This document shows positions 24,237-57,372 of a stretch of DNA of 64,000 nucleotides, piece after piece (the stretch's first letter is position 1; every line of letters starts with the position of its first letter). The stretch is taken from the NCBI GenBank assembly GCA_023379025.1, contig JAMCTH010000009.1:69092-133091 (forward strand). Reading direction: 5' to 3'. The notes beneath the pieces were generated by a model that saw only the letters and a program-made list of their open reading frames with translations, was not told the origin of the DNA and made no database searches. A program made the position numbers and the translations under genes. The DNA is from Patescibacteria group bacterium. GTDB lineage: Bacteria > Patescibacteriota > Microgenomatia > UBA10105 > UBA927.

Positions 24237-24788
24237 TTAAAAAATTCCTTCCAGACAAAAAATATTTAGCTTCTCTGCTTTTTGTGCCTTCTCACAAAGC
24301 GGACGCAAATCACAGTGTCGGCAGAGTGAATCATGAAGATCGTCTTTATGGACACCCAGTGTTCCCCGTTTCTGGTGAAGATCAAATAAAAGTTTCAAAT
24401 ATTTTCCTTCTGCTATCCTTGGAATCTCATCTCTGCGTTCATATCCGTACCATTCGTACAGCCGTTTATCGCCCTTACTCAAATTGCAATGTTTGCATAC
24501 CCGTATGGCGTTTTCCGGCGTATCTGGGCCATTGTGTTTTTTTGGAAGTATATGCTCTGTGGTTAGTTCGATTTGCTTTTCGCAATAGATACACTCATCC
24601 AAATGTTCCCGCTCCTTTTCCCATTCACGGAGTGTTGTAGACCATTCTATCTCGCCATCCCGCAATGCGAGAAACCGGTTCATCTGAAATCCTCGCCCCT
24701 GATTCCCGATGCAGGCGGATTTGGATATCAGCTTAGCATACTGCCAATAAATCGTATCCCGAATCGTTTGTGCGATAGGCGGAGGCAT
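24237..24788 (-). CDS. HNH endonuclease
   Basis: 183 aa; CIYCEKQ...EHILPKKHNGPDTPENAIRVCKHCNLSKG is a classic HNH/His-Me finger with a CxxC...CxxC zinc site. Low-GC DNA. Confidence 0.8.
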   Translation of the reverse strand: MPPPIAQTIRDTIYWQYAKLISKSACIGNQGRGFQMNRFLALRDGEIEWSTTLREWEKEREHLDECIYCEKQIELTTEHILPKKHNGPDTPENAIRVCKHCNLSKGDKRLYEWYGYERRDEIPRIAEGKYLKLLFDLHQKRGTLGVHKDDLHDSLCRHCDLRPLCEKAQKAEKLNIFCLEGIF

Positions 24789-24794
24789 AAGTAA

Positions 24795-25025
24795 CTAAAT
24801 TTTCCCTTGTTTCCTTCTATTTTTATGAATACGAACATGCTTGCCTATACTGATGACTCGTACATTTCGTTTTGTAGTTTTCCCACCTAGCGCTACTGGT
24901 TTAACATGGTGCGCTATGTTCCCCTTAGGCGCTCTTCCTTTCGGATAACCCTTTGCCTTCAAAACTCTTTTAAGTTTACCGGGGTTCCGCCCCTTCCTTA
25001 TCTGAGTCTTAGTTGGTTTTCTCAT
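24795..25025 (-). CDS. 76-aa highly basic mini-protein with HNH-like core (HH-x-P-x-ALGG...N...H..IH)
   Basis: MRKPTKTQIRKGRNPGKLKR... then IAHHVKPVALGGKTTKRNVRVISIGKHVRIH. Overlaps the hsdS stop by 17 nt and lies 6 nt from the HNH gene. Confidence 0.45.
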   Translation of the reverse strand: MRKPTKTQIRKGRNPGKLKRVLKAKGYPKGRAPKGNIAHHVKPVALGGKTTKRNVRVISIGKHVRIHKNRRKQGKI

Positions 25026-26391
25026 TTTCCTGGCCTCCCTTCTCTATCATCTCTTCAACTTTGCGTTTTGCTTCCTCCAATAATTCCTTCGATTTCTTCC
25101 GTGCCTCGTGCGACTGACGTACCAAGTCTGCAATTTTTTGTTGAGTGGATTCCGCCAAAACGGGAATAAGCATATTATCAATTGATTCTTGCGGGACTGC
25201 GGTCAAAATAGTTCCTGCGCATCGTTTTTTTAATTGCTTTTGCATTATCAAACTTCTGGCCATCACCAATAATACCTCCGGTAATACTTCATCACTTCGA
25301 AATTGAAAAAATCCTGTCGATGCAATATATCCATCTTGTTCTTCGTCGATAAGTGCGACTTTTTCTAACGATCCTTCGACGCTGGAAACGATAACATCAC
25401 CGGCTTTCAATAATCGTTTCGCTCTGCCCGGCGCCTCCTTACCCGATACTTCCTCATATCCATCAACAACGCCAATTGATGCATTTATGTTTGCAAGCTC
25501 GACGTACTTAAATGTCTCATCCGGTTTCTCGCCTGGTTTAAAATTTGCAGGTACGTCAAAAATAGTTTTCTTTAATGTTTTCGCTCCCCGCTTTTTTAAT
25601 TCTGACTCTAATACTTCATATTTCGGTTGAAAATAATCCGCATCTATCCTATTCGTTTTTGTAGAATCAGAAAAATTAATGACGTAACTCAAGTCATCGG
25701 AAAATTGTAAATTTTTTAACTCTAGCTCATCCAACAGCAAATTTTCTGCATCTGCATAGCTTTTTTTTGAGACATCAGTCATTCTAAGTGATTCTTTATA
25801 TAACGACTCAACCTCTTTGACTTCATTCTCTAAAAACGTAGGGATCAATATTGTTTTTGTTTGCCAAAGAAAAATATGTTGTTGAACGCTTCCTACTGGC
25901 AATCGTAACACCTGTTTTTTCCCATACTTCGAATTTAGAAACATAGCAATCATTAGGGCCGAATAGTTTGGTTTTAACGAAATCTTCACAATGTCTTGAT
26001 TGGAATTTAGCTTTTGCGGAATATTGAGAGCCATTGCGGCATTTCCAACAGATCCAGACATTGCCAATAAAACCTGTCCCTCATAAACGCGGGATTTCTT
26101 TAATATTTCATCAGATCTATTATCAATAAATTTAACGTCGTTATAATCTATATAACCTTCCTTAATATTATTGGCTTCAATAAATGGAATCCCATCTTCG
26201 ACCCATTCAATGTAATTTGTTAAGTCGTATGCACCAAAACTAATTAAGCTTTCAGATATATCCTCAAGTGTTTGATGGGGTATAGATTGGAGTTTTTTTG
26301 CTATCTCTAAATATTCCGGCTGGTAATATTCAGAGTCTATCCGTTGCGCCCCTTCAAGTTGAGATTTTTTAATAATTGAATATGTGGTCAT
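25009..26391 (-). CDS. hsdS: type I restriction-modification specificity subunit HsdS (two TRDs)
   Basis: 460 aa; N-terminal ...RIDSEYYQPEY, duplicated TRD architecture with a central conserved region; 4-bp ATGA overlap with the upstream gene. Confidence 0.85.
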   Translation of the reverse strand: MTTYSIIKKSQLEGAQRIDSEYYQPEYLEIAKKLQSIPHQTLEDISESLISFGAYDLTNYIEWVEDGIPFIEANNIKEGYIDYNDVKFIDNRSDEILKKSRVYEGQVLLAMSGSVGNAAMALNIPQKLNSNQDIVKISLKPNYSALMIAMFLNSKYGKKQVLRLPVGSVQQHIFLWQTKTILIPTFLENEVKEVESLYKESLRMTDVSKKSYADAENLLLDELELKNLQFSDDLSYVINFSDSTKTNRIDADYFQPKYEVLESELKKRGAKTLKKTIFDVPANFKPGEKPDETFKYVELANINASIGVVDGYEEVSGKEAPGRAKRLLKAGDVIVSSVEGSLEKVALIDEEQDGYIASTGFFQFRSDEVLPEVLLVMARSLIMQKQLKKRCAGTILTAVPQESIDNMLIPVLAESTQQKIADLVRQSHEARKKSKELLEEAKRKVEEMIEKGGQENEKTN

Positions 26392-26969
26392 AACGTCTTA
26401 TTCGGAAAGTTGAGAAATTCGATATATGAAAGAAATGCCTTTCCCTTATCGGTAATTAAATAGTGATCATTCCTCGAATGGATTAACCCTGCATCAAAAA
26501 GGAATTTTAAATAGAAATCGAAAGTCCAATTTTTTAATAGAGGAAATATATTTTGAGTGAAAACAAAAAATAATATTGTATCTTTTGATTGTTCGCCGTT
26601 TCTAGTCTCTTGCGCTCTTAATCTCTTTAGCAATTCTATTTGGCTTCCAAAAATAAACCGATAGATTCTTTCAAAATCTAAATATATTTGTGTGTAGCTT
26701 AAATCTTTTTTAATTTTTTCTATCTCTGATGTTTTAGGATTATTTTCTGCTAATTTCTCATACTGCGGAGGGGGTGATAAATTCACTCTAGTTCCGCCCG
26801 GTAAATCTGCGCTTTGAATCCGATTCAATAAATTTTTAATCTCTTGGTTAAATTTTATAATTAAAAATATAACTATAGAAGGCCAAATCAATACCTTTAC
26901 ATATTCAAGGATCAAAACCCAATCTATTCGCGAAACTGACCGTATGGTAGTTGACGTTGTTGCTATCAT
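26388..26969 (-). CDS. hypothetical membrane-anchored protein embedded between hsdM and hsdS
   Basis: 193 aa; one N-terminal TM helix (WVLILEYVKVLIWPSIVIFLIIKF) and a soluble C-terminal domain with winged-helix-like LLKRL...GLI...YLITDKGKAFLSYI. No recognised family. Translationally coupled on both sides. Confidence 0.55.
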   Translation of the reverse strand: MIATTSTTIRSVSRIDWVLILEYVKVLIWPSIVIFLIIKFNQEIKNLLNRIQSADLPGGTRVNLSPPPQYEKLAENNPKTSEIEKIKKDLSYTQIYLDFERIYRFIFGSQIELLKRLRAQETRNGEQSKDTILFFVFTQNIFPLLKNWTFDFYLKFLFDAGLIHSRNDHYLITDKGKAFLSYIEFLNFPNKTL

Positions 26970-26971
26970 CT

Positions 26972-28912
26972 CTACCTCCGAAAACTAAATTTCTGCTCTT
27001 TCGCAAATTCGATAAATTTATCTGCTATCTCATCCAAATCGTGGTCGAGGACTTTGCGACCGCGGGAATCGTACACATAGTTTCCCGAGGAATCTTTTTT
27101 ATAGACGTATTCGCCGGAGTTATCTTTGCCGCCGCGCTTGGAGACCGCCATAAAAATGGGATAATCGGCAAGCGGCTCACTCTCCCATTTTTGCAAAAAC
27201 AATACTGATGTCTTGGTTCCCGTGTGCGGTTTAAACGTATTTCCGTGCAGCCCGACGACGGCGAGAATACGCGCCTTGTCAAACAGCCACTGCCGGATAT
27301 ATTCCATATTGGTATTGTTAAATACTCCCTGCGGCAACACAATGGCGATTCTGCCGCCGGGTTTAACGAATTCAAGCACCCGCTCGATAAAGAGAACGTG
27401 CCGCTCTACCGTATTCACCAGCTTTCCGTTTTTCTTTCCGAACTCGTACTGACGGAGTAACCCAGGATCTTTGAGCTCACCCGCAAACGGCGGATTCGTA
27501 AGCACGAGGTCAAACGAAAAATTTTTAAACGTCTTTTCATTTTCTTCCTGCTCGCCGTAATCCTGACATTTCAAAAGCCGTTGACGTAGCTCCCGCCGCG
27601 CCTGCAATTTTTCGTCGTCTTCCCCCTGCCATTCGCGCGGATCAAGCGAGTTGAGCTTAAACAAATGCGACCGTCCATCACCTGCTATTAGCATAAGAGC
27701 GCGTGAAACTTTCGCCGTTTCATCGGCAAAATCAATGCCGTACAAATATTGTTTTGAATATTCCTGTTTCGCGTGTTCAGTCGATAAATACTGTTCTTTC
27801 ACCCAATTCATTGCACCAATAAGGAATCCTCCGGAGCCGGCCGCGGGATCCAACACATACTCGCCCGATTTCGGATTGAGCATTTTGACTGCCATCGCGA
27901 TGACATGGCGCGGGGTAAAATATTGCCCCTTCTTCCCCTTGGCCACTTCCGGAATCAGATATTCAAACGCTTCGTCGATGATAGATAAATCAGCGCCGAA
28001 AAGCCTAGCGGTTTCCATTTCTCCCACAACCACGGACAAATGCTCGGGAGACAATCGGATGAGTTCCTGTTCATAAAACGTCCCGGGCCATTTATATATT
28101 GCCTTTCGGAATAAATCGTTGATCGCCGTATACGTTTTTGCGGGATCTTTATATTTACGGAAATAGATTTCATTATCCGGCCGGCTTTCTGCTTCCATTT
28201 CGTCGTACAGCTTTGCGTAAATGAGTTTGAATACCTCGTTAAATACATCAACGCCGGCATTGGCGAGCACCAATTCCTCCATGATCTCTATCGCCCGCTT
28301 CAAATCAAATTTTGGATTGGTATCGCCAAGTGTCTTTTTTTCGCTCAATAAATCATCAATGGTTTTGTTGGCAGATGGAATATCCGGAAGCGTATCTTCA
28401 AATTGATTCGGATAATTCCGATACAAGATCACGCGGTCAATCCCATTTGACCATACGCCGATTTCGCATCCTTCCGCGTTTAAATAACTCTTGAGTTGAT
28501 CAATACCTTTTTCCTCCGTTGGGCTTTTTACTTCGACAATGATATACGGCGTCACCTTGTCGGTTTTGTACACAACAATATCCGCCGCCTTTTTATGGAT
28601 TTCCCGCCCGAAATGAATGCTTTTTTCCGTCTCCAACCGGTCATATGGATACCCAAGAAGCGCATGAAGCTTGTGAAGCCACAACTGCCGCACAATTTCT
28701 TCCGGACGACCGAGTTTTTTCTGTTCGTCGTATACTACGCGTGGATTTCCCGTTTTGAGATCTTTGATAAAAAACTTTTTTTCTTCTTCCCAGATGTAGA
28801 GTACCGAGTTGATATCAATACCCTCAAATTCCTTTAACCCATAGACGATGGAGGCATCTTTAAAAATTCTGTCAATAATTTCTCCGGCTTTATTCGGTTT
28901 TATGGTTGGCAT
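26972..28912 (-). CDS. hsdM: type I RM N6-adenine DNA methyltransferase HsdM with N-terminal HsdR_N-like PD-(D/E)xK domain
   Basis: 646 aa; motif I VLDPAAGSGGFL, motif IV TNPPFAG. N-terminal 150 aa contain ADIVVY...IIVEVKSP (D...ExK), resembling the N-terminal nuclease-fold domain of HsdR. Confidence 0.85.
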   Translation of the reverse strand: MPTIKPNKAGEIIDRIFKDASIVYGLKEFEGIDINSVLYIWEEEKKFFIKDLKTGNPRVVYDEQKKLGRPEEIVRQLWLHKLHALLGYPYDRLETEKSIHFGREIHKKAADIVVYKTDKVTPYIIVEVKSPTEEKGIDQLKSYLNAEGCEIGVWSNGIDRVILYRNYPNQFEDTLPDIPSANKTIDDLLSEKKTLGDTNPKFDLKRAIEIMEELVLANAGVDVFNEVFKLIYAKLYDEMEAESRPDNEIYFRKYKDPAKTYTAINDLFRKAIYKWPGTFYEQELIRLSPEHLSVVVGEMETARLFGADLSIIDEAFEYLIPEVAKGKKGQYFTPRHVIAMAVKMLNPKSGEYVLDPAAGSGGFLIGAMNWVKEQYLSTEHAKQEYSKQYLYGIDFADETAKVSRALMLIAGDGRSHLFKLNSLDPREWQGEDDEKLQARRELRQRLLKCQDYGEQEENEKTFKNFSFDLVLTNPPFAGELKDPGLLRQYEFGKKNGKLVNTVERHVLFIERVLEFVKPGGRIAIVLPQGVFNNTNMEYIRQWLFDKARILAVVGLHGNTFKPHTGTKTSVLFLQKWESEPLADYPIFMAVSKRGGKDNSGEYVYKKDSSGNYVYDSRGRKVLDHDLDEIADKFIEFAKEQKFSFRR

Positions 28913-28913
28913 A

Positions 28914-29552
28914 TTAGCTTACAGTCCTCCACTGTCCGGCTTTCAGGATGGAAATGACTTTTCCCTTCATTTCGACCAAGCTGGTAAAAAATATTGGCGG
29001 ATAATTCGGATTTTCCGGCTTCAAATAATGATACGGAGGCTTATCTTGGGAAATAAATCGCTTGATCGTTGATTCCTCGCCGATCTGTGCATACACAATA
29101 TCACCGGAGGCGAATTCTTTTTGACTTTTCACCAACACGTTGTCGCCATCATTAATACCCGCATTGATCATCGAATCTCCAGAAATCTTCAGGAGAAAAA
29201 CTTCGGCATCTAGCTTCGAAATATCTTTTGAAACCGGCTTCCAGTCTCCGTCGATAACGATTGATTGAAGTGGTGCCCCTGCATGACTCACGCCTAAAAA
29301 AGGAACAAGCGGATCTCTGCCTAAGGCTTCATATCCGTATGGCAATATCGCAAGACTGCGCGCTGCGGATCCATTGCGCTTGATGATCCGTTTTTGTGCT
29401 AATTTCCCGAGAAGATCTATCACTGACTGATTCGAAGAAACGCCGAGGCGCTCCCGCATTTCTTCAAACGTCGGCGGGTACCCCGTATCTTTTATATAAT
29501 CGTAGAGGATAGACAACATTTCCAATTGACGCTTCGTTAACGGCAGATTCAT
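28914..29552 (-). CDS. lexA: LexA-like repressor (N-terminal wHTH plus C-terminal S24 self-cleaving peptidase)
   Basis: 212 aa. N-terminus LTKRQLEMLSILYDYIKDTGYPPTFEEMRERLGVSS...IIKR aligns with the LexA DNA-binding domain. C-terminus GDSMINAGINDGD...TIKRF carries the Ser/Lys dyad. Stop lies 1 nt before the hsdM start. Encoded in low-GC island DNA. Confidence 0.8.
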   Translation of the reverse strand: MNLPLTKRQLEMLSILYDYIKDTGYPPTFEEMRERLGVSSNQSVIDLLGKLAQKRIIKRNGSAARSLAILPYGYEALGRDPLVPFLGVSHAGAPLQSIVIDGDWKPVSKDISKLDAEVFLLKISGDSMINAGINDGDNVLVKSQKEFASGDIVYAQIGEESTIKRFISQDKPPYHYLKPENPNYPPIFFTSLVEMKGKVISILKAGQWRTVS

Positions 29553-29700
29553 AATACTGCCATACTACCCGACTAAATATTCTGGGTCAACTGGAAATCT
29601 ATATATCAAATAGCATCATTATCCATAAAACCCTGCGGGTATAAAAGCGCGATCAGAAATACCTAAATGTAAAGTGTCTCGGGCCGAAAGTTTATTCGAT

Positions 29701-31407
29701 TTATGACAATTTCCCCAAAAAATCGTTTATCTTTTGTTCTATTGCCGAACGACGGTATGCGAGAAATTCTTGAAAATTATCCATCTCCCAAAGCCGTTTA
29801 TCTGCCGGAATAAGTTGGGACGTAAGCGCTGTCTCACCGCGTTTTGGAATAATTTCATTTGTAAAGTAATCGATTGGCTCTCTGTCTAGTATGTGCCTGT
29901 TCGTTTTCCCTCCGATAAATGCAAGGTTAGCAATTTCGTTTATATCCTTGGAGTCAATGTTCCGTTTGGTTAGCTGGGCTTTAGGAAATATATGATGCCA
30001 TTGAATTTTATGCGTATCCCCTAGCGTTTTATCCGAAAGCTGCAGCCCAGTCAGCCAATCCTTTGCGCCATTTGCCTTTAGTACAAAATACAGCATGGTA
30101 AATATAGGACTAACTGTCGTCTTACCCGCAAGCTCGCCGGGTTCAAGTTCAAATCGCCGTACGTGCTCCTTGAGCTTGGCAATCAAATCATCGAGCGTAC
30201 CTCCACGAAACAATACTGCTAAATCCGCATCCAAAATAGATTCCGAAGATCCCATTCCATAGTGTCCGCGTATGTGAGCCAGGAAAAACCATCGCAACAG
30301 CTTCTTTTCCTCATCCATGCTCAATTGCTCATTGTGAAGGTACGCAAAAACGGCGATTGGAACGACAAGCATGGGTGACGATAAATATTCCAGATTGTCA
30401 ATTCCAGCGTTTTTCCGAAGGAAGTTCACGGCAAACCGCAGGCTGTTTTGAGCAATATCCCATGCTTCCGCCAACTTTTCTTTGGAATACCGACCAATGG
30501 TCTTGAATTTGCTTTGTTTTGTCGCAAACACGGTCATGAAGCGCACGAGTAACCAATCAAACACATAATCTGAATCGTCCCCAAATGTCTCAGCAAAGTC
30601 ATCCATGAGATTCATAAATCCGCGCCATTTGGCTGTGATTTGTGCTAATGCCAGATCAGAACCCCGTAGTTTCACCCCAAGTGAATTTACGCGGACAAAT
30701 ATCTCCGTTACCTCCTCATACGACATTTCGCTCTCGAGGAGTTGTATGTCATACATATATTTTTCAATATCTTTTACTTTCTGCAGCCGATCGGAGTAAC
30801 GGAGGTAGTTGGGGTCCTCAAACGAGGTGACGCCCGCGCGCTTGAGAATTTCCGCATGGTTTTTATTGAATATATCCGATACGGATACCCATGTGGGTAT
30901 GTTTTTCAGCGCCCGGGACGTAACTACAAACGTCCGTTTTTTCAGTTCCTCCTGGATATCCCGGTCATCACCGTCATTTTCCATTTGTTCGTCAATATCA
31001 GCGGTTTCCGCTTCTTCATCCACTTCCAGGACTTCTATTGGCGGCCCTTCCGGATGCTCAAGATTAAAAAGGATTTCAATGGGCCGTTTTCTGTTCCTCA
31101 CAATAATCGGTTGCCCGGTTAATATTGCGGCAAGCGAGGTGATTCTCTGTTGGCCGTCCAACAACAACCATCTGCTGAGCGGTAAATTCGGTTTCGTGGC
31201 ATCCACGGACAAGCCGTGCGTTACCACATTTTCGGACGTTTGCCACACTAAAATACTTCCGGAAGGATAATTGCGATACAGGGAATCAAGGAGGTCGCGG
31301 ACCCGAGTTGCAGTCCACACGTATTTGCGCTGCATCTCCGGAAGCTGTAGCTCATCGTTCTGAACTTTATTAACCAAATCCCGAACGGAAATATCGCTTT
31401 TCTGCAT
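29701..31407 (-). CDS. GmrSD-family type IV (modification-dependent) restriction endonuclease, DUF262-DUF1524
   Basis: 568 aa. N-terminal ParB-like DUF262 with (L)LDGQQRITSL motif; C-terminal DUF1524 His-Me finger QWHHIFPKAQL...N...N. Confidence 0.8.
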   Translation of the reverse strand: MQKSDISVRDLVNKVQNDELQLPEMQRKYVWTATRVRDLLDSLYRNYPSGSILVWQTSENVVTHGLSVDATKPNLPLSRWLLLDGQQRITSLAAILTGQPIIVRNRKRPIEILFNLEHPEGPPIEVLEVDEEAETADIDEQMENDGDDRDIQEELKKRTFVVTSRALKNIPTWVSVSDIFNKNHAEILKRAGVTSFEDPNYLRYSDRLQKVKDIEKYMYDIQLLESEMSYEEVTEIFVRVNSLGVKLRGSDLALAQITAKWRGFMNLMDDFAETFGDDSDYVFDWLLVRFMTVFATKQSKFKTIGRYSKEKLAEAWDIAQNSLRFAVNFLRKNAGIDNLEYLSSPMLVVPIAVFAYLHNEQLSMDEEKKLLRWFFLAHIRGHYGMGSSESILDADLAVLFRGGTLDDLIAKLKEHVRRFELEPGELAGKTTVSPIFTMLYFVLKANGAKDWLTGLQLSDKTLGDTHKIQWHHIFPKAQLTKRNIDSKDINEIANLAFIGGKTNRHILDREPIDYFTNEIIPKRGETALTSQLIPADKRLWEMDNFQEFLAYRRSAIEQKINDFLGKLS

Positions 31408-31470
31408 ACTTCTGCCCTATTTTACACCCACCCCGCCCTTTTCGCGATGATAACAAATTTAAAAATCTCA

Positions 31471-32658
31471 TTACCTTTTATTCACTCGGTGGCGCGCTAT
31501 GCGGTAGCTGTCATCAAATAATTCGTAATAATCGCCGTAGATATATTTTTGTCCGTATACCGCAGTTCCGAGCGGCTCAAGTATATCCAGACGCATAAGG
31601 CGTTCGATCACGTTATATGCGCCCGGCGCCGTAAAACCTGTCCATTTCATAATTTCCGCGACTCCCACAATCGGCTGGCCAAACAGTTTCCGAACGAGCC
31701 CTAAGGTTAATGCTGCAGATTTTTTGCCGAGCATTTGCATTTTTGCAAAATCGCGGTCACGAAGTGCTGTAATCCGGGCACAGGTTTCTATAGACGATTC
31801 CGCTGTTTCCGCAACCCCATCCAAAAAAAACTCCAACCATCCGTCAACATCAGATTCGTCATCGTGATATGTTTGCAACTTCTCATAATAAAGCTTGCGG
31901 TACTTTTTAAAGTAACCCGACAGATAGAGAACCGGCAATTCCAAAAGCTTCGCATGCTGCATGTACATCGCGACCAGCATACGGCCCGTACGTCCGTTTC
32001 CGTCCGTGAACGGATGAATCGTCTCAAATTGTGCATGGATGAGTCCGGCTTTCACAAGCGACGGGTACTCATCTTCGGCATGCATAAACAATTCCAAGTC
32101 TTGAAGACTTGCGACCATATCTTCTGGCGCAGGCGGCACAAAAGATGCATCCATCGGCGTCTTGCCTCCGATCCAATTTTGACTCCTCCGGAATTCACCC
32201 GGGTACGCATGCTGCGTTGCCCGTGCGCCAGTCATGAGTTTCTTATGCAGCTCCCGGATCAAACGAAGAGAAATCGGTAATATTTCCGATCTCTTCATAC
32301 CGTAATTCATTGCCTCCACGTAGTGGATAATGTCATCCACGTCCGGCTCCAAACGCGATTTTTCTTCGGTCACTGGCGCTGCCACGGCATCTTGCAGTGT
32401 TGCTCTAGTCCCTTCGATTTGGCTGGAATAGGTAGCGTCTTTTTTGACAAACATCAAAAGAAAAAAATCTTTGTCCGGCAGTAACCGGGTGATGCCGTCC
32501 AGCTTGCCGACCAAACGGATCGCACGTTCATGTTTTTTATGGAGGAACGCTCGTATAGGGAATCCGCTCTTCGGTGGGAACGGGAAGGGCGTAAACGACG
32601 AGTATCCGTCTTTCTGTGCTATATACCGACCAATGCGTGGTTTGTTTATATTGCTCAT
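31471..32658 (-). CDS. Fic family protein (AMPylase-type; Fic_N plus Fic plus C-terminal wHTH)
   Basis: 395 aa; canonical Fic motif HPFTDGNGRTGR. Confidence 0.85.
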   Translation of the reverse strand: MSNINKPRIGRYIAQKDGYSSFTPFPFPPKSGFPIRAFLHKKHERAIRLVGKLDGITRLLPDKDFFLLMFVKKDATYSSQIEGTRATLQDAVAAPVTEEKSRLEPDVDDIIHYVEAMNYGMKRSEILPISLRLIRELHKKLMTGARATQHAYPGEFRRSQNWIGGKTPMDASFVPPAPEDMVASLQDLELFMHAEDEYPSLVKAGLIHAQFETIHPFTDGNGRTGRMLVAMYMQHAKLLELPVLYLSGYFKKYRKLYYEKLQTYHDDESDVDGWLEFFLDGVAETAESSIETCARITALRDRDFAKMQMLGKKSAALTLGLVRKLFGQPIVGVAEIMKWTGFTAPGAYNVIERLMRLDILEPLGTAVYGQKYIYGDYYELFDDSYRIARHRVNKR

Positions 32659-41907: not shown

Positions 41908-42219
41908 TTACGCTTTGTTGGCCCGTTTACTGAGTATGTATTGCACCGAAGGGCTTACTGATTTATCCGTCCGGTGGATACAGCCTATCCAGCAACACGG
42001 ACGGCGCATGCCGTCTTTGAGCTCGGTGCATACCCGCTCCACATGTTCTTTTCTGGTTTTCGGCATTTTAACGGAGATCGTCCAGCAAATCCATTCATTA
42101 CGCGCAAGCGGGGTAAGGCTTTCCCAAAGCGCAGACGCTTTCGGATCAGACAGTAAGGCCTCCCGCAAATCCGGAGGAACGTCATGGACGACGCCTCCTG
42201 ACATATCTTTTTTGGTCAT
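41908..42219 (-). CDS. YdeI/OmpD-associated family protein
   Basis: PPDLREALLSDPKASALWESLTPLARNEWICWTISVKMPKTRKEHVERVCTEL matches the P.DL..AL...P.A...F..L.P..R.E...W...AK...TR..R pattern of this family. Confidence 0.6.
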   Translation of the reverse strand: MTKKDMSGGVVHDVPPDLREALLSDPKASALWESLTPLARNEWICWTISVKMPKTRKEHVERVCTELKDGMRRPCCWIGCIHRTDKSVSPSVQYILSKRANKA

Positions 42220-42505
42220 AGCGTCATTCTAACAAATGTTCGGGTGTCCGACAAAAAAAGTGTTGAAGTAACGGGATAGGAAAAACTTCTTTCATGCAGA
42301 CACTTTTTTGTGTATCATAAAAGTAATGATACGGGGAAACTTTATCGGTGCGGCGGTTGTTGCGATAATCTATACGGTTTATATTTTGATTAAGCCGCTT
42401 CCGTCAAAACCGCAGGAAGTAGTTGCGCTCGTCGTTCTCAATGCCCTGACCATCGTGCTCCTGTCGCAAGCTTTCAAATAAATTTTTTACCTAATAAAAA
42501 GGGGC

Positions 42506-42991
42506 TTATTTCACCGCAATACATTCCTCATCTTCTCCCGGCGGTTGCCAATATTCTACATAACTATCAAACGTCTCTCCGCTTATTTCAAATGAATCTC
42601 TAGGCGGATTTTTACTTCTGGAGATCACCCGCTCCCTCATTTTCTCCATCGAACATGCGACGTAATACAGAATCGGCTTTGCGCCTATTTCATATATTTT
42701 TTTCTTTATATCGTCTCTTTGTGACTTAACCCAAAAACCTTCGTCCAGTATCACATCTTTACCTGCTTTTAGGATTTTGAATGCTGTCTCTGTTGCGAGA
42801 TCAGTAATTTTATTGTCATAGGCTGCAAAATTCTTATCTGCGGTTATCTTGTTTCCGAAAATTTTGATTATCCATTCGTCTTTGGTTATACGTACGGCTC
42901 CTGTTTCTTCCTCCAGTTTCCTGGCAACCGTCGTCTTCCCCGAACCGATGAACCCGCAGATAAGATAAGCAATAGGCTGTTTCTTATTCAT
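42506..42991 (-). CDS. P-loop NTPase / predicted small-molecule or polynucleotide kinase (AAA_33-like)
   Basis: Walker A ICGFIGSGKTT at the N-terminus, 161 aa; low-GC DNA. Confidence 0.55.
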   Translation of the reverse strand: MNKKQPIAYLICGFIGSGKTTVARKLEEETGAVRITKDEWIIKIFGNKITADKNFAAYDNKITDLATETAFKILKAGKDVILDEGFWVKSQRDDIKKKIYEIGAKPILYYVACSMEKMRERVISRSKNPPRDSFEISGETFDSYVEYWQPPGEDEECIAVK

Positions 42992-43135
42992 GAGTCAATT
43001 ATATCAGAAGGATCGAACTGTCCAGCGAAGGGTCCTTGAGGCTAAAATAGCTAACTTCCCCTAAACGACCCATCCATCAACGAAAGAGTGGAGTTCGGAC
43101 ACAGACTTGGACTAAGAAAGATACTTGCGGAGAGC

Positions 43136-44236
43136 TTAAACTTTAAAATATGCGAAAACCTCGTTCATCGCTTCAAATCCTCGCTTTATATTCCTTTGTA
43201 GTCCTGGTGAGTTGTGGACAGTGGCCATTTTCACTCGTAATTTCAGTTTTGAGACTAAGTATCTGAGTTTGAAGATCTGAAACTTATTATTGAAATTAGT
43301 GGGGAACGTATTTGTGAGAGAATAGCCTTCTTTAAACCATGTCATTCTGGGCTCCCCAAAAAACAGGCTGTATGCAGAAAATTCCATGACGGGATCACCT
43401 GAAATGCACTCATCCCAGTCAACAATACCTGTTATATGCTTCCCATCTGACAGCGTATTCCAGTCTGCAACGTCGTTATGGATTAAAGCTGGTTCATCGC
43501 AATTGATGAGATCTGCGTTTTTATTAAGGAGTGCCAATATCTTTTCTTGCTGTGAATGAGTGATCTTATGGTCATTATCAAGGTATTCAAGGTCTTCATG
43601 AAGCGAGGCAAAAAAATGCTCACGGAGAGAATTGTACTGTCCTTCCAACGTGCCTTTGCTCTTTGCTATTTTATTGTCAAAAAAACCGAAACCCCTTGTT
43701 TTCACCCGATGAATCAGGCCGATTTGTCGACCCGTTTCCCTAATTAGTTGTTCTTCATAAGCGTATTTGATTTCACCTGAATGGGTAAAATTTCGCATTG
43801 TTTCTCCCGGCAAAGCTTCCATGATTATGAAATCAAAATCAAATTTTTTCCTGTCATTGACGATGATATACGTTGAATAAGTAAGAACCCCGTACGCTTT
43901 TGCCTTTTCTGCAGCGACTTTTTCAACCCAAAAATATCCATTTTTTACATCTTTTGGATGCATTCTGATTACTATATTTGTACCATCCGCCAATTTTGCT
44001 TTCAGAACGTTATTAACCAAACCATCGGTTATCAACTCTCCAACCTGAACTACTTTAGCATCCTGAGGCTTTTTCCCTGTTTTAATCATTCCATATTCAA
44101 TTGCTGGTACTGCATCACTCTTATCAAAACTTTCAGATCGATCTAAGAAGATTTTTTTCATGTCTTCGGCAGAAATATTACGGTTAGTCTGCCAATAAAA
44201 CATATTGTGGCGGTTTGAAAGGTCAAGAATAGGCAT
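43136..44236 (-). CDS. aminoglycoside phosphotransferase (APH) / choline-kinase-like family kinase
   Basis: Brenner motif LIHNDVADWN and downstream IVDWDE; 366 aa; low-GC DNA. Confidence 0.7.
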   Translation of the reverse strand: MPILDLSNRHNMFYWQTNRNISAEDMKKIFLDRSESFDKSDAVPAIEYGMIKTGKKPQDAKVVQVGELITDGLVNNVLKAKLADGTNIVIRMHPKDVKNGYFWVEKVAAEKAKAYGVLTYSTYIIVNDRKKFDFDFIIMEALPGETMRNFTHSGEIKYAYEEQLIRETGRQIGLIHRVKTRGFGFFDNKIAKSKGTLEGQYNSLREHFFASLHEDLEYLDNDHKITHSQQEKILALLNKNADLINCDEPALIHNDVADWNTLSDGKHITGIVDWDECISGDPVMEFSAYSLFFGEPRMTWFKEGYSLTNTFPTNFNNKFQIFKLRYLVSKLKLRVKMATVHNSPGLQRNIKRGFEAMNEVFAYFKV

Positions 44237-44457
44237 GGAGGAATTATATCAAATCCCTGAAATTGAACTTATAGATTATCTTAACTATATTTTTAGATTG
44301 TTTTCATGCCCTAGATCAAAATTTGCTCGAGAAATGGGCTTCGCAAAGCTAAGCTTTGATTTTCTATGGCGCGTTTTGACAATCTAACATTTTAGCTCGC
44401 TTACTGGGACGATTTTAGAGCGGTGGATTGCTCCCCGTTCTTGACCTAACTCGAACT

Positions 44458-44694
44458 TTAGCCATCCTTTTTCTTCCAGGGTAGTTTATCCTTTTCATGC
44501 TTTTTGGTTATTCTTCTGTCTAGATAATTAAAATATGATGGTAGTAAAAAGAAAGTAAGAACAAATCCAAGTATTACTACCCCTTTAACGTCAAGAAAAC
44601 TAGCAAAAAATACTAATAAGGTAATCGCGAAAAAAGAGAATTTCAACGGATCACTGTAAATATTATCTATGAAATTATTGAAGATACTTTTCAT
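44458..44694 (-). CDS. small membrane protein, hypothetical
   Basis: 78 aa, two hydrophobic helices. Confidence 0.35.
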   Translation of the reverse strand: MKSIFNNFIDNIYSDPLKFSFFAITLLVFFASFLDVKGVVILGFVLTFFLLPSYFNYLDRRITKKHEKDKLPWKKKDG

Positions 44695-44729
44695 AAAACT
44701 ATTAATTTGTTGCTATTTAATGTATATAA

Positions 44730-45320
44730 TTAAAGTGATGGTTTTATAACTTCACTTGGAAGTCCATACATATCCTTCGTTGATACTTCAGTACAAACCA
44801 AATCAAATATACTTGTTCCGTTGTTTTCATCCCTAACCTGATAGTACCTTCTATCTTGACCAGCATAAACTGGCTCAAATATTACTACATTACTATTTAC
44901 GCTAATATCACCTAAATGATAACCACCCTCACCTTTACTAAAGGCAATTATATTTCCACTAGTCACGTCAATTACTGCATAGCCAAAACAATCTGTACCA
45001 CACCCCCAAGAAACAAAAGTATAGTGTCCAGCGAAATTAACTCCCTTTGCAACGACCTCTTTAATTCTTGTATCAAATGTTTTTGCTTCGGGAAAATTGG
45101 AAAAATTGACCGGACTAGGACTTCCTTCAAATTTCGGCCGTGTATTTAATTGATTTTTTGCTAATTGCTCCTTACATGTCCCTGCAGTAGAAGTTTTTGT
45201 AATACTTTTACCCACACCAATATCTTTCTGTTTAACTTTTATGTAGCCTGATAAGGCTATCCCAGTCAAACATAAAACACTAATAGAAATTAATAATTTA
45301 CGATTAATTTTCCTTCTCAT
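44730..45320 (-). CDS. secreted/lipoprotein-like hypothetical protein
   Basis: N-terminal signal-like LLISISVLCLTGIALSG; Cys-containing mature domain; no known family. Confidence 0.45.
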   Translation of the reverse strand: MRRKINRKLLISISVLCLTGIALSGYIKVKQKDIGVGKSITKTSTAGTCKEQLAKNQLNTRPKFEGSPSPVNFSNFPEAKTFDTRIKEVVAKGVNFAGHYTFVSWGCGTDCFGYAVIDVTSGNIIAFSKGEGGYHLGDISVNSNVVIFEPVYAGQDRRYYQVRDENNGTSIFDLVCTEVSTKDMYGLPSEVIKPSL

Positions 45321-45513
45321 CTACTACTCCCAAAGAACTGAAAGAGCTTAAAAGTAAAAATCAGTAAATTCTGAACCAATAATTCCAATACTTAGCATTT
45401 TCAGTTTCATAGGAAATATAATAAAAAGCACCAGTAAAACCAAGCTCCGTAATCCTAGTATTAATCTGACTGAAAGTCTAGCACAAGTTATCAAGGCTTT
45501 CCAAAATCCGATT

Positions 45514-46285
45514 ACACACCCCCGGGGTGTGGGCAGACCTACCCAATGTCGTGATATAAATGTGATTCAAGAAATAGGAACCGCTGATATTCTGCCTGAT
45601 CAAACGTACTCCTTTGCAGACTCTCCGCATTCCGATAATATCCCATAAGCAATGTTTTATCCAACATCGCCATATCTGCACGTGATGCATATGACGCGAA
45701 CGAACTCCACCGATACTGAATAAGTTCGTTCTGTGAATGCAGGATGCCGGCGCTTAAGGGATTGAGGTGAATGTATCTGGCCACATGTACAAGCTGCTCA
45801 TCCGTTTCTATCCGCACCGCCTTAAACATGGATTGAAACAGAGCTCCAAACCTCTTTGTTTTGATATTAAAGTACTTCGCATACCCATTTTGAATTTGAG
45901 AAACGAATGTGGCTATTCCTCCATTTCTCAGTTGAGTAAGAAGCATATGAAAATGATTTGGCATCCAGCAAAATGCGAGTATATTCACCAACTTCAGATG
46001 CTGGTGTGCAAACTGTTCGAAGTAGTGTTGTTTTGCAGCCAAGGATAGCCTGTTATATTCAGAGAAACGTACCGGAGGATGTTCAAAGCGATAATACTCG
46101 GCAAGATCTAAAAAACGCTGGTAATCACGACTATTAATGAAAATTATCTGATTCGCGACGCTGCGATTAAAAATATGATACGTCTCTGACGTTTGACAAG
46201 GAACATAACGATATGGCATCACGCATACTATACGCCCCTCAATTAGAATATTCAGTAAGATGACCCACACCCCGGGGGTGTGGGT
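45514..46285 (-). mobile_element. IS200/RAYT-like element: HUH-Y1 transposase gene flanked by CACACCCC-GGGGTGTG hairpin palindromes
   Basis: Imperfect palindromes at 45514-45533 (ACACACCCCCGGGGTGTGGG) and 46265-46285 (CCCACACCCCGGGGGTGTGGG) bracket the transposase ORF. The element abuts the 3' end of tRNA-Asn. Confidence 0.6.
45539..46219 (-). CDS. IS200/RAYT-family tyrosine (HUH/Y1) transposase
   Basis: HUH motif MPNHFHMLL and catalytic Tyr region VARYIHLNP. Start placed at the Met after the upstream hairpin; the ORF track extends to 46315 through the palindrome. Confidence 0.7.
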   Translation of the reverse strand: MPYRYVPCQTSETYHIFNRSVANQIIFINSRDYQRFLDLAEYYRFEHPPVRFSEYNRLSLAAKQHYFEQFAHQHLKLVNILAFCWMPNHFHMLLTQLRNGGIATFVSQIQNGYAKYFNIKTKRFGALFQSMFKAVRIETDEQLVHVARYIHLNPLSAGILHSQNELIQYRWSSFASYASRADMAMLDKTLLMGYYRNAESLQRSTFDQAEYQRFLFLESHLYHDIG

Positions 46286-46322
46286 GGACACAATAAGAAG
46301 GCATAATTGTTTCAAAACTCAG

Positions 46323-46394
46323 CTCCCCCGGCTGGATTCGAACCAGCAACCTTCTTCTTAACAGGAAGCCGCTCTACCGTTGAGCTACAGGGGA
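46323..46394 (-). tRNA. tRNA-Asn(GTT)
   Basis: Manual cloverleaf: TCCCCTG-TA-GCTC-AACGGTA-GAGC-G-GCTTC-CTGTTAA-GAAGA-AGGTT-GCTGG-TTCGAAT-CCAGC-CGGGGGA-G, 72 nt. U1-A72 and G73 as in E. coli tRNA-Asn. CCA not encoded. Confidence 0.85.
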
Positions 46395-46528
46395 GCGGAG
46401 TTTTGAAACGGTATGCTCCAAACCATTTTTCTCTACTATCCAACTGGTCTAGAGAACGTTGATATTATACCATGAGAACTTTCTGTCTCAATAGCGTTAG
46501 AGTCTTCTGAAAGGTTTTGGAAAAAGTC

Positions 46529-55616: not shown

Positions 55617-55707
55617 TGGCGGAGAGGGCGGGATTCGAACCCGCGATCACCTTGCGGCGATATGCGCCCTCCAAGCGCACGCACTAGACCAACTATGCGA
55701 CCTCTCC
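55617..55707 (-). tRNA. tRNA-Ser(GGA), CCA encoded
   Basis: GGAGAGG-TC-GCA...TGC-G-TGCGC-TTGGAGG-GCGCA- long variable arm -GCGGG-TTCGAAT-CCCGC-CCTCTCC-G-CCA; type II tRNA with a 3-bp D stem. Confidence 0.85.
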
Positions 55708-55751
55708 AATAAGCCTGATTATACCATCTCTCCGGCATCACCGATGCTATA

Positions 55752-56678: not shown

Positions 56679-56681
56679 GGA

Positions 56682-57254: not shown

Positions 57255-57283
57255 ACATTCAGGATCACGAACATTTTTCGATG

Positions 57284-57356: not shown

Positions 57357-57372
57357 ATTCATCCCGGGCTCA

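What the first reader, a model, noticed from the sequence alone, without database searches (positions are those of the whole stretch)
26972..28912. HsdM with intact N-terminal PD-(D/E)xK nuclease-fold domain and no HsdR partner in the window
The first about 150 aa contain ADIVVY...IIVEVKSP (D...ExK) preceding a complete gamma-class N6-adenine MTase (DPAAGSGGFL / NPPF). No helicase motifs (DEAD/H, motor domains) occur in any island ORF. The MTase may therefore carry its own DNA-cleavage or DNA-recognition domain, making this closer to a type IIG/ISP-like split enzyme than a classical type I system.
Basis: partly seen in the sequence, partly recalled or inferred. Interest (0 to 1): 0.6.

Follow-up and report, generated by a model that had tools for sequence, protein, structure and literature searches.

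The report
Nuclease-methylase fusion restriction enzyme, no HsdR
The gene encodes a DNA methylase with a working-looking DNA-cutting domain at its front end, and with its neighbouring specificity subunit it forms a self-contained restriction system of an already known kind (type IIB-like), unusual mainly because a LexA-type repressor gene heads the operon.

Summary
The 646-aa ORF lies on the minus strand at 26972-28912. It carries a full-length HSDR_N_2 PD-(D/E)xK nuclease domain (aa 70-179) in front of a gamma-class N6-adenine methyltransferase. Neither the window nor about 100 related loci encode an HsdR.

The catalytic tetrad E96/D111/E127/K129 aligns with BsaXI E73/D90/E105/K107, which were validated by mutagenesis. 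These four residues and a QxxxY motif are 96-99% conserved across 150 diverged relatives. BsaXI's RM subunit (type IIB) is the best solved-structure match by sequence and by fold, over the full length. The closest cultured relative is Anabaena variabilis plasmid D HsdRM+HsdS (47% identity). A preprint reports that those two genes alone block conjugation.

This is therefore the RM subunit of a two-gene "RM + S" type IIB-like restriction-modification enzyme. It is a known kind, routinely mis-annotated as "N-6 DNA methylase / type I M".

The newer part is the context. Across Patescibacteria the cassette is always lexA-RM-(variable cargo)-S. The LexA looks self-cleaving, and a conserved palindromic operator sits inside its own promoter. 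More distant relatives carry a small C-protein-like HTH gene in the same position.

Cleavage geometry and LexA control are inferred, not shown.

The parts
26972..28912 (-). RM subunit (646 aa): N-terminal PD-(D/E)xK nuclease, a multi-helical connector, a gamma-class N6-adenine methyltransferase and a C-terminal helix
   Evidence: Pfam HSDR_N_2 + N6_Mtase. Best solved-structure sequence hit is RM.BsaXI at 1.1e-35 in three stretches. AF2 model pLDDT 85, pTM 0.78. Foldseek to BsaXI 6e-27 over 660-683 columns.
28313..28912 (-). Nuclease domain (aa 1-200). Pfam HSDR_N_2 core is aa 70-179 (28376-28705). Catalytic E96 (28625-28627), D111 (28580-28582), E127 (28532-28534), K129 (28526-28528). QxxxY is aa 139-143.
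   Evidence: Alignment to BsaXI E73/D90/E105/K107. Conservation 96-99% in 150 representatives. Separate AF2 model pLDDT 82.5. Fold hits: BsaXI 5e-5, REase-like 3ijm, Cas4, HsdR fragment 3h1t. Coordinates checked.
26981..27982 (-). N6-adenine methyltransferase domain (aa 311-644). Motif I DPAAGSGGFL at 27821-27850, motif IV NPPF at 27485-27496. Terminal helix aa 626-639.
   Evidence: Pfam N6_Mtase 1e-40 and Eco57I 7e-13. Both motifs invariant in A1. Coordinates checked. Terminal helix seen in the AF2 model.
25009..26391 (-). Specificity (S) subunit, 460 aa, with two target-recognition domains. Its start overlaps the preceding ORF by 4 nt.
   Evidence: Pfam Methylase_S. Full-length PADLOC Specificity_I matches. 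Solved S subunits 5ybb_D and 3okg match aa 285-449, and 7vru_C matches aa 48-160. An S gene lies downstream in 36 of 38 related loci with enough DNA.
26388..26969 (-). Variable 'cargo' ORF (193 aa) between RM and S. It has a hydrophobic N-terminus and a weak winged-helix match at the C-terminus. It is not conserved in related cassettes.
   Evidence: Pfam HTH_45 1.7e-6, aa 149-184 only. No BLAST similarity to the ORFs at the same position in other loci.
28914..29552 (-). LexA-type repressor (212 aa), first gene of the operon. Its stop codon is 1 nt from the RM start codon.
   Evidence: LexA_DNA_bind + Peptidase_S24. TIGR00498 lexA 146 bits, above the 110.95 cutoff. A91-G92 site, S127 and K164 conserved in 118-120 of 120 homologues. 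Directly upstream of RM in 6/6 Patescibacteria loci, in 15 metagenome loci, and in 3/3 loci reached from the LexA side.
29562..29590 (-). Predicted lexA-operon promoter with embedded operator: -35 TTGACC (29585-29590), operator CCAGAATATTTAGTCGGG (29568-29585), -10 TAGTAT (29562-29567). The ATG lies 9 nt after the -10.
   Evidence: The same layout, TTGAC-N13-GTCGGGTAnTAT, occurs in L005, L007, L010 and L011. The core palindrome GACT-AAAT-AGTC occurs at the same place in most metagenome loci. Coordinates checked. It occurs only once in the window.
24237..25025 (-). 76-aa ORF (24795-25025) and 183-aa HNH endonuclease (24237-24788), packed behind S on the same strand. Not conserved in related cassettes, so they are island neighbours of uncertain relation.
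   Evidence: Pfam HNH 4e-9. No homologue of the HNH protein in the 80 metagenome loci. No Pfam hit for the 76-aa ORF.
29701..32658 (-). Neighbouring defence-type genes in the same low-GC island: GmrSD/DUF262 (29701-31407) and a Fic/SoFic-like gene (31471-32658)
   Evidence: Pfam GmrSD_N, Fic_N and Fic. PADLOC HEC-05 and SoFic. GC 0.33-0.48 across 24-33 kb against 0.55-0.58 in the flanks.

Best explanation
The gene encodes the RM (restriction + modification) subunit of a two-component, type IIB-like restriction-modification enzyme. Its partner is the S subunit encoded two genes downstream.

Proposed mechanism, by analogy with BsaXI and BcgI:
- Two RM chains dock on one S subunit, which has two target-recognition domains. 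Docking probably uses the RM C-terminal helix. The result is an (RM)2S complex that reads a bipartite DNA site.
- On hemimethylated host DNA, the gamma-class MTase domains (DPAAGSGGFL / NPPF) methylate one adenine in each half-site.
- On unmethylated incoming DNA, the N-terminal PD-(D/E)xK domains (E96, D111, E127, K129), each tethered by a helical connector, cut at fixed positions near the site.
- No ATP-driven translocation is involved, so no HsdR is needed.

The operon is transcribed from one promoter in front of a LexA-type repressor gene. That repressor most likely plays the role that small C-proteins play in related cassettes.

Shown here: domain architecture, intact and conserved catalytic residues, full-length homology to a solved type IIB enzyme, the conserved RM...S gene pair without HsdR, and the conserved promoter/operator.

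Inferred: stoichiometry, double-sided cleavage, cofactor needs, and LexA binding and induction.
For: Architecture and family:
- HSDR_N_2 + N6_Mtase on one chain.
- RM.BsaXI is the top solved-structure hit by sequence (1.1e-35, three stretches including the nuclease).
- RM.BsaXI is also the top hit by fold: full-length model 6e-27 over 660-683 columns, against about 1e-17 over 410-470 columns for type I M subunits. For the N-terminal domain alone the BsaXI match is 5e-5.

Active site:
- The BsaXI catalytic residues E73/D90/E105/K107 were established by mutagenesis and are described as absolutely conserved in type IIB enzymes (PMC11997821). They align with E96/D111/E127/K129.
- Those residues plus Q139 and Y143 are 96-99% conserved in 150 diverged representatives.

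Relatives of the N-terminal domain:
- The nine longer relatives I scanned (712-1210 aa) all combine HSDR_N_2 with N6_Mtase. Three of them also carry Methylase_S, which makes them single-chain RMS forms. None has helicase domains.

Gene context:
- An S gene lies downstream in 36/38 loci.
- No HsdR appears in the window, in 12 annotated contexts, or on three plasmids.
- Of 52 large flanking ORFs from 80 metagenome loci, only 2 have a DEAD domain, and no ResIII or HSDR family appears in the list of the 25 most frequent families.

Functional precedent:
- A. variabilis plasmid D HsdRM is 47% identical with the same N-terminal motifs.
- Its two genes alone strongly reduce conjugation when moved into Nostoc strains (bioRxiv 10.1101/2025.10.21.683720).
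Against: - No biochemical or methylome data exist for this protein or for any Patescibacteria member.
- Only 64 kb of the genome was available, so an unlinked HsdR cannot be excluded.
- The protein lacks BsaXI's 'knob' and 'paddle' elements (646 vs 916 aa). Cleavage geometry may therefore differ from BsaXI.
- REBASE-derived PADLOC profiles file this architecture under 'type I MTase' (PDLC03034, 574 bits).
- One related locus (L036) has an 853-aa DEAD-family helicase 185 nt upstream.
Confidence: 0.78

Rival explanations
1. It is a classical type I M2S methyltransferase core whose HsdR (motor + nuclease) is encoded elsewhere in the genome. The N-terminal HSDR_N-like domain would then be an accessory DNA-binding or regulatory module, not the restriction nuclease.
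For: The MTase and S parts resemble type I M and S subunits. PADLOC's best profile is labelled type I MTase. Sources annotate relatives as 'type I restriction enzyme M protein'. Only 64 kb of the genome could be inspected.
Against: - The complete catalytic tetrad and QxxxY are under strong purifying selection.
- No HsdR lies near roughly 100 related loci, including small plasmids.
- The homologous two-gene system restricts DNA in heterologous hosts.
- Type I M subunits match only the MTase part, and less well than BsaXI.
Confidence: 0.07
2. It is part of a larger multi-gene defence system, MADS-like or otherwise. In that case LexA, the cargo ORF, the 76-aa ORF, HNH or GmrSD would be obligatory partners and the RM+S pair would not be a stand-alone restriction enzyme.
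For: NCBIfam MAD2 and MAD5 are the best named matches for RM and S, and PADLOC mad2 and mad5 also hit. The genes sit in a tightly packed low-GC defence island. lexA is invariably linked within this clade.
Against: - Scores are far below the family cutoffs (297 vs 720 and 154 vs 400).
- No other MADS component was detected among the seven island proteins scanned.
- The ORFs between RM and S are unrelated from locus to locus and are often absent.
- HNH, GmrSD and Fic are not conserved with the cassette.
- More distant relatives are plain RM+S pairs.
Confidence: 0.08
3. It is functionally a methyltransferase only (an orphan or epigenetic M+S), with a nuclease domain that is structurally intact but no longer used for cleavage.
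For: Annotation as 'N-6 DNA methylase'. Very high conservation (71-89% identity) across Patescibacteria lineages could hint at a housekeeping role. Linkage to lexA is atypical for RM systems.
Against: Residues needed only for catalysis (E96, D111, E127, K129) are 96-99% conserved across a deep family. The cassette sits at different genomic positions and, in this window, in a low-GC island, which fits a mobile defence module. The S subunits show the TRD diversification typical of restriction systems.
Confidence: 0.05

Closest known systems
BsaXI (type IIB, RM + S; PDB 8w0p/8w2p/8w2q; PMC11997821)
   Same: N-terminal PD-(D/E)xK nuclease with the E...D...ExK tetrad, a helical connector and a gamma N6A MTase on one chain. 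A separate type I-like S subunit with two TRDs. No translocase. It is the best sequence and fold match over the full length.
   Different: Only 22-23% identity. BsaXI RM is 916 aa, with a 'knob' and a C-terminal double-helix 'paddle' that the 646-aa protein lacks. According to the BsaXI paper, the other 'RM + S' members have an EcoKI-like MTase with a lone C-terminal helix. That description fits this protein's AF2 model.
Anabaena (Trichormus) variabilis ATCC 29413 plasmid D HsdRM + HsdS (bioRxiv 10.1101/2025.10.21.683720)
   Same: Closest cultured relative: 47% identity over aa 6-583 plus the C-terminus, with identical N-terminal motifs (E, D, ExK, QLKSY). An S gene is adjacent and there is no HsdR. 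The preprint reports that the two genes block conjugative transfer.
   Different: 917 aa, with an insertion of about 210 aa before the C-terminal segment. It is plasmid-borne. The incomplete PLSDB gene table lists no lexA upstream. Its cleavage sites are also still undetermined.
BcgI (archetypal type IIB; A subunit = nuclease + MTase, B subunit = specificity)
   Same: The same two-gene logic: a fused RM polypeptide plus a type I-like S subunit reading a bipartite site (from the literature as summarised in PMC11997821).
   Different: The 637-position PADLOC IIG profile PDLC03602 matches only around motif I (46 bits). BcgI is reported to need higher-order assemblies.
Type I RM methyltransferase cores (EcoKI M2S1, StySJI M, 5ybb)
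   Same: MTase fold, helical N-terminal region, C-terminal helix and S-subunit architecture.
   Different: Type I M subunits have no nuclease domain and depend on an HsdR motor-nuclease. Here the nuclease is fused to M and HsdR is absent.
Controller (C) protein-regulated RM operons
   Same: A DNA-binding regulator gene sits immediately upstream of, and overlaps or abuts, the restriction gene. Its operator lies within its own promoter, and the -10 is only 6-11 nt from the start codon. More distant relatives of this cassette carry small HTH_3, HTH_17, HTH_26 or RHH genes at that position.
   Different: Here the regulator is a full LexA, with a winged-helix domain plus an S24 self-cleaving protease whose Ala-Gly site, Ser and Lys are intact. 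This implies a RecA/DNA-damage input that C-proteins lack.
MADS (methylation-associated defence system) MAD2/MAD5
   Same: These are the best named NCBIfam matches for the MTase and the S subunit.
   Different: Scores are well below the equivalog cutoffs, and the other MADS genes were not found.

Membership tests
Type IIB restriction-modification enzymes, 'RM + S' group (BcgI/BsaXI-like) | Endonuclease and gamma-class N6-adenine methyltransferase on one polypeptide, with the nuclease N-terminal | tested here: met
   Pfam HSDR_N_2 aa 70-179 + N6_Mtase aa 311-644. Full-length sequence and fold match to RM.BsaXI.
Type IIB restriction-modification enzymes, 'RM + S' group (BcgI/BsaXI-like) | Conserved catalytic tetrad E...D...ExK in the nuclease domain (BsaXI E73, D90, E105, K107) | tested here: met
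   These align with E96, D111, E127, K129. They are 96-99% conserved in 150 representatives and invariant in A1.
Type IIB restriction-modification enzymes, 'RM + S' group (BcgI/BsaXI-like) | Separate type I-like specificity subunit with two TRDs, encoded with the RM gene | tested here: met
   460-aa S gene in the same operon. S lies downstream in 36/38 related loci.
Type IIB restriction-modification enzymes, 'RM + S' group (BcgI/BsaXI-like) | No ATP-dependent translocase subunit or domain | tested here: met
   No helicase domain in RM, in the island or among the large ORFs of the window. None in the annotated related loci. Only 2 of 52 large flanking ORFs carry a DEAD domain. The whole genome was not available.
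Type IIB restriction-modification enzymes, 'RM + S' group (BcgI/BsaXI-like) | [quoted passage not shown] | not testable with these tools
   Needs in vitro cleavage mapping. This is also undetermined for the 47%-identical Anabaena system.
Type IIB restriction-modification enzymes, 'RM + S' group (BcgI/BsaXI-like) | (RM)2S assembly through a C-terminal helix of RM and the conserved helices of S | tested here: inconclusive
   The AF2 model ends in a lone helix, aa 626-639, as the BsaXI paper describes for the RM+S group. No complex was modelled.
Classical type I RM system | HsdR subunit carrying an SF2 motor plus nuclease, encoded with hsdM and hsdS | tested here: not met
   Absent from the window and from related loci (and the context calls).
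Classical type I RM system | HsdM-type gamma N6A MTase and an HsdS with two TRDs | tested here: met
Type ISP (LlaGI/LlaBIII) | Single polypeptide with Mrr-like nuclease, SF2 helicase, MTase and TRD | tested here: not met
   There is no helicase domain and the TRDs are on a separate protein. LlaBIII matches only via the MTase part (rank 22).
Single-chain type IIG/IIL (MmeI, BpuSI, DrdV) | Nuclease, MTase and TRD in one chain | tested here: not met
   The TRDs are on a separate S subunit. However, 1100-1200-aa relatives of the N-terminal domain are single-chain R-M-S proteins, as is the 1179-aa protein on PCC 7002 pAQ6.
MADS (MAD2/MAD5) | NCBIfam equivalog cutoffs and the presence of the other mad genes | tested here: not met
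   MAD2 scores 297 bits against a cutoff of 720, and MAD5 154 against 400. No other mad hits in the island.
LexA repressors (for the upstream gene) | LexA DNA-binding domain plus S24 peptidase, with the Ala-Gly cleavage site and Ser/Lys dyad | tested here: met
   Pfam and TIGR00498 above cutoff. A91-G92, S127 and K164 kept in 118-120 of 120 homologues.
LexA repressors (for the upstream gene) | RecA*-stimulated self-cleavage and operator binding that controls an SOS regulon | not testable with these tools
   A palindromic operator candidate is conserved in its own promoter. No second copy was found in the window or in L007, including upstream of recA.

The most novel reading that the evidence does not exclude
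In Patescibacteria this type IIB-like RM+S enzyme travels as a mobile cassette. Its controller is not a small C-protein but a complete, self-cleaving LexA that binds a GACT-N4-AGTC palindrome inside its own near-leaderless promoter.

If so, expression of the restriction-modification enzyme, and of whatever defence 'cargo' is inserted between RM and S, would be wired to RecA/DNA-damage signalling. Much of what is annotated as 'the LexA' of these bacteria would in fact be the regulator of a restriction cassette.
Probability: 0.45. Interest if true: 0.6.

Novelty: new member of a known kind. Interest (0 to 1): 0.38.

Why it matters
**Annotation.** Thousands of genes labelled 'N-6 DNA methylase' or 'type I M protein' with no R partner look like orphan methylases or incomplete type I systems to pipelines and defence finders. 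If they are complete nuclease-methylase restriction enzymes, the defence inventory of Patescibacteria and other lineages is undercounted.

**Enzymology.** These compact 646-aa RM + 460-aa S pairs have highly variable S subunits. They are a large, unexplored source of programmable type IIB-like specificities.

**Regulation.** The strict lexA-RM-S linkage, with a conserved operator, suggests restriction coupled to DNA-damage signalling. It also raises the question of what 'LexA' actually regulates in these reduced genomes. Both points can be tested directly with cloned cassettes.

Tried and rejected
- **Genome-contig scan.** I obtained contexts from the look-up of encoding contigs and one metagenome scan instead.
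- **MADS membership.** Considered because of the NCBIfam and PADLOC hits. Rejected because scores are far below the cutoffs and the other components are missing.
- **Type ISP.** Rejected because there is no helicase.
- **A conserved partner between RM and S.** The ORFs in that slot share no detectable similarity, so the 193-aa ORF is cargo and not a subunit.
- **Additional LexA boxes.** I searched the window, L007 (including upstream of recA) and L003. I found only the lexA-promoter copy, plus one 3-mismatch hit in L003 that is probably chance. I cannot say whether this LexA has a wider regulon.
- **Literature on the lexA link.** Sanchez-Osuna, Barbe & Erill 2017 (Environ Microbiol 19:3465, on the Patescibacteria SOS network) is not held. 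Full-text searches for LexA plus restriction-modification in CPR found nothing relevant. Prior description of the lexA-RM linkage therefore cannot be excluded.
- **Alignment A2.** This was a mistaken call and was not used.
Full report
**1. The observation**

The ORF lies on the minus strand at 26972-28912 (646 aa). Pfam finds a complete HSDR_N_2 domain (PF13588, aa 70-179, profile 1-110 of 110, E 2.6e-22). This family models the N-terminal PD-(D/E)xK nuclease of type I R subunits. Pfam also finds N6_Mtase (aa 311-644, E 1e-40) and a secondary Eco57I-MTase match.

D111 lies in ADIVVY, E127-x-K129 in IIVEVKSP, motif I is DPAAGSGGFL and motif IV is NPPF. I re-derived the coordinates from the DNA.

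The gene sits in a low-GC island (GC 0.33-0.48 over about 24-33 kb, against 0.55-0.58 in the flanks). The genome is annotated by NCBI as a Patescibacteria group bacterium.

**2. No HsdR**

On the minus strand the island reads, in order:
- Fic (31471-32658)
- GmrSD/DUF262 (29701-31407)
- LexA-like gene (28914-29552)
- this gene
- a 193-aa ORF
- a 460-aa S subunit (25009-26391)
- a 76-aa ORF
- an HNH protein (24237-24788)

None of these has helicase domains. The other ORFs of 600 aa or more in the window are BipA, phosphoketolase, a P-type ATPase and DnaG. The only SF2 protein is a 397-aa DEAD-box helicase 22 kb away, with no nuclease domain.

**3. Is the nuclease domain real and active-looking?**

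- *Sequence match to a solved structure.* The best hit in the PDB is the RM subunit of the type IIB enzyme BsaXI (8w0p_A, E 1.1e-35). It matches in three stretches, and the first aligns query aa 65-143 with BsaXI aa 42-122.
- *Catalytic residues.* The BsaXI cryo-EM paper identified E73, D90, E105 and K107 by mutagenesis and cleavage assays. It states that they are absolutely conserved across type IIB enzymes (PMC11997821). In the HMMER alignment they correspond to E96, D111, E127 and K129.
- *Conservation.* I searched the N-terminal 210 aa against 1.84 billion cluster representatives. This gave 630 relatives at E<=1e-3 and 225 at E<=1e-10. In the 150 best, which are no more than 50% identical to each other, conservation is: E96 133/139, D111 135/139, E127 139/141, K129 138/141, Q139 136/137, Y143 133/135.
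- *Structure prediction.* AlphaFold2 models are confident for the full length (pLDDT 85, pTM 0.78) and for aa 1-200 (pLDDT 82.5).
- *Fold search, full-length model.* Foldseek ranks BsaXI first (E 6e-27, 660-683 aligned columns). Type I M subunits follow at about 1e-17 and cover only the MTase part (410-470 columns).
- *Fold search, N-terminal model.* The hits are BsaXI (5e-5), a restriction-endonuclease-like fold protein (3ijm), Cas4, a Vibrio HsdR fragment (3h1t), and the nuclease domains of BpuSI and DrdV.

**4. What carries this domain elsewhere?**

I scanned nine longer relatives of the N-terminal domain against Pfam (712-1210 aa). All combine HSDR_N_2 with N6_Mtase. Three of them (906, 1130 and 1210 aa) also carry Methylase_S, which makes them single-chain R-M-S proteins. 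None has helicase domains. This is the same split into 'RM + S' and single-chain 'RMS' forms that the BsaXI paper describes for type IIB enzymes.

**5. Gene context across relatives**

The family is large. The close relatives (71-89% identity) are almost all from Patescibacteria.

Annotated contexts, Patescibacteria clade:

| Locus | Gene order |
|---|---|
| L003 | LexA, RM, 183-aa ORF, 160-aa ORF, S |
| L005 | LexA, RM, NYN, 181-aa ORF, S |
| L007 | recA, LexA, RM, 137-aa ORF with a GIY-YIG-like motif (read by eye), 187-aa ORF, S, a recX-like ORF (also by eye) |
| L010 | LexA, RM, S |
| L011 | LexA, RM, S |

A more distant clade (about 50% identity):

| Locus | Gene order |
|---|---|
| L014 | HTH_17, RM, S |
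| L015 | HTH_17, RM, S |
| L017 / L018 | integrase, HTH_3, RM, 197-aa ORF, S (a resolvase-type recombinase follows in L017) |
| L016 | RM, three ORFs, S |
| L009 | lepA, RM, 291-aa ORF, S |

In 80 metagenome loci:
- 36 of the 38 loci with at least 3.5 kb downstream have an S gene. In 20 it abuts RM, and in 16 it follows 0.17-2.4 kb of inserted genes.
- Of 52 large flanking ORFs, two have DEAD domains. No ResIII or HSDR family appears among the 25 most frequent families listed.
- The single suggestive case is L036, with an 853-aa DEAD-family helicase 185 nt upstream.

On plasmids of cultured bacteria:
- Klebsiella pneumoniae INF231 plasmid 2 carries RM (674 aa, 45% identity) plus S, with no HsdR.
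- A. variabilis plasmid D carries RM (917 aa, 47% identity) plus S.
- Picosynechococcus PCC 7002 pAQ6 carries a single-chain 1179-aa form.

**6. Functional precedent**

A 2025 preprint reports that deleting hsdRM on A. variabilis plasmid D, or losing the plasmid, greatly improves conjugation. It also reports that moving only hsdRM+hsdS into two Nostoc strains drastically reduces conjugation. The authors interpret the system as type IIB-like (bioRxiv 10.1101/2025.10.21.683720).

My alignment shows that protein shares the N-terminal E, D, ExK and QLKSY motifs with the query. The preprint assigns the PD...(D/E)XK motif to aa 444-452, which lies inside the MTase domain. The conserved nuclease site is N-terminal.

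**7. Conclusion on identity and mechanism**

This is the RM subunit of a two-gene, type IIB-like restriction-modification enzyme. By analogy with BsaXI, I expect an (RM)2S complex on a bipartite site. It would methylate adenines in both half-sites of hemimethylated DNA. It would cut unmethylated DNA near the site using the tethered N-terminal nucleases, independently of ATP.

The architecture, the active-site conservation, the homology and the HsdR-free gene pair are shown here. The stoichiometry, the two-sided cutting and the cofactor needs are inferred. The protein lacks BsaXI's knob and paddle. It looks like the EcoKI-like 'RM + S' majority, with a lone C-terminal helix (aa 626-639).

Membership checks for other families:
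- Type I fails on HsdR.
- Type ISP fails on the helicase.
- MADS fails on the curated cutoffs and on the missing partner genes.

**8. The lexA linkage (beyond the original finding)**

*The protein.* The upstream gene is a full LexA. It has LexA_DNA_bind plus S24 domains and scores 146 bits on TIGR00498 against a cutoff of 110.95. The Ala-Gly site, Ser127 and Lys164 are kept in 118-120 of 120 homologues. Its stop codon is 1 nt from the RM start codon.

*The linkage.*
- It sits immediately upstream of RM in all six independent Patescibacteria contexts.
- It does so in 15 of the 59 metagenome loci with usable upstream DNA. That covers essentially all loci with at least 59% identity to the query, except L036.
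- In the reverse test, three LexA homologues picked only for contig length (64-69% identity) all precede HSDR_N_2+N6_Mtase ... S.

*The operator.* The lexA promoter is conserved as TTGAC-N13-GTCGGGTAnTAT. The core palindrome GACT-AAAT-AGTC sits between the -35 and the -10, and the -10 is 6-11 nt from the ATG, which suggests a near-leaderless transcript. The motif occurs once in the window and once in L007, and not upstream of recA there.

*The same slot elsewhere.* In more distant relatives, small HTH or RHH genes often occupy the position upstream of RM. I therefore read LexA as occupying the C-protein slot.

*Mobility.* The cassette is flanked by different genes in different genomes, and in this window it lies in a low-GC island. 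In L007 it sits between recA and a recX-like ORF. All of this fits a mobile cassette that brings its own LexA.

*Limits.* I could not test whether this LexA also runs a wider SOS regulon. I also could not establish whether the linkage has been described before, because the key 2017 paper on the Patescibacteria SOS network is not held.

**9. The cargo slot**

The ORFs between RM and S are unrelated from locus to locus. They include matches to NYN, PBECR3 (weak), an OLD-family ATPase-TOPRIM protein, DUF6119, Fic and a metallo-beta-lactamase fold (weak), together with a GIY-YIG-like motif seen by eye and several membrane or unknown proteins. The 193-aa ORF in this window belongs to that variable set.

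**10. Verdict**

However, the thing itself is a known kind (type IIB-like RM+S), so it counts as a new member and not a new system. Interest is moderate-low for the enzyme. It is higher for the conserved LexA-controlled cassette, which I give as the novel reading.

Noticed in passing
window 28914-29590 (-); L003, L005, L007, L010, L011, L022-L035, L043, L077, L096, L102-L105: A strictly conserved cassette, lexA-RM-(cargo)-S, occurs across Patescibacteria. The LexA looks self-cleaving. A palindromic operator (core GACT-AAAT-AGTC) sits between the -35 and -10 of its own promoter. Picked blind from the LexA side, 3/3 homologues are followed by the RM gene.
   Followed up: yes
window 26388-26969 (-); same slot in L003, L005, L007, L009, L016, L017, L079, L080, L085, L102, L103, L105: The interval between the RM and S genes is a hypervariable insertion slot. 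It holds unrelated small genes: matches to NYN, PBECR3, OLD-like ATPase-TOPRIM, DUF6119, Fic and a metallo-beta-lactamase fold, a GIY-YIG-like motif seen by eye, and membrane proteins. This resembles defence cargo nested inside an RM operon.
   Followed up: partly
L007 8051-15013: In one Patescibacteria genome the whole lexA-RM-cargo-S cassette sits between a recA-like ORF and a recX-like ORF (both read by eye, no profile search), two genes that are usually adjacent. This suggests insertion of a mobile cassette. The LexA-box candidate is absent upstream of that recA.
   Followed up: partly
L021 60-2813 (A. variabilis plasmid D hsdRM): The preprint on this system places the PD...(D/E)XK motif at aa 444-452, inside the MTase domain. 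Alignment with the query and with BsaXI shows that the conserved nuclease motifs (E, D, ExK, QLKSY) are in the N-terminal ~170 residues.
   Followed up: partly
window 24237-25025 and 29701-32658 (-): The island also carries an HNH endonuclease with a 76-aa ORF directly behind S, and GmrSD/DUF262 (PADLOC HEC-05) and Fic (SoFic-like) genes directly in front of lexA. None of these is conserved with the cassette elsewhere. A DUF262 pair also lies next to the Klebsiella plasmid homologue (L020).
   Followed up: partly
window 42000-46400: A second low-GC island (GC 0.34-0.43) abuts tRNA-Asn (46322-46394). It holds a zeta-toxin/AAA_33-like kinase (42506-42991), an APH-family phosphotransferase (43136-44236) and an IS200-like Y1 transposase (45539-46315).
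   Followed up: partly
window 55617-60514: An unusual cluster of six tRNA genes (four tRNA-Ser with different anticodons and two tRNA-Arg) is interspersed with short ORFs and patches of lower GC. One 231-aa ORF (58212-58907) has a resolvase-type HTH.
   Followed up: no
L036 1721-4282: This is the only related locus with a helicase next to the RM gene: an 853-aa DEAD/Helicase_C protein 185 nt upstream. This locus has no lexA. It is not a typical HsdR (no ResIII or HSDR_N hit reported), but I did not examine it further.
   Followed up: no
PADLOC/NCBIfam results for window 26972-28912: The REBASE-derived PADLOC profile PDLC03034 ('type I MTase', 672 positions) matches aa 66-644 at 574 bits. Nuclease-MTase fusions of this kind are therefore already filed as type I M subunits in defence-finder libraries. 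A locus like this one would be scored as an incomplete type I system.
   Followed up: no
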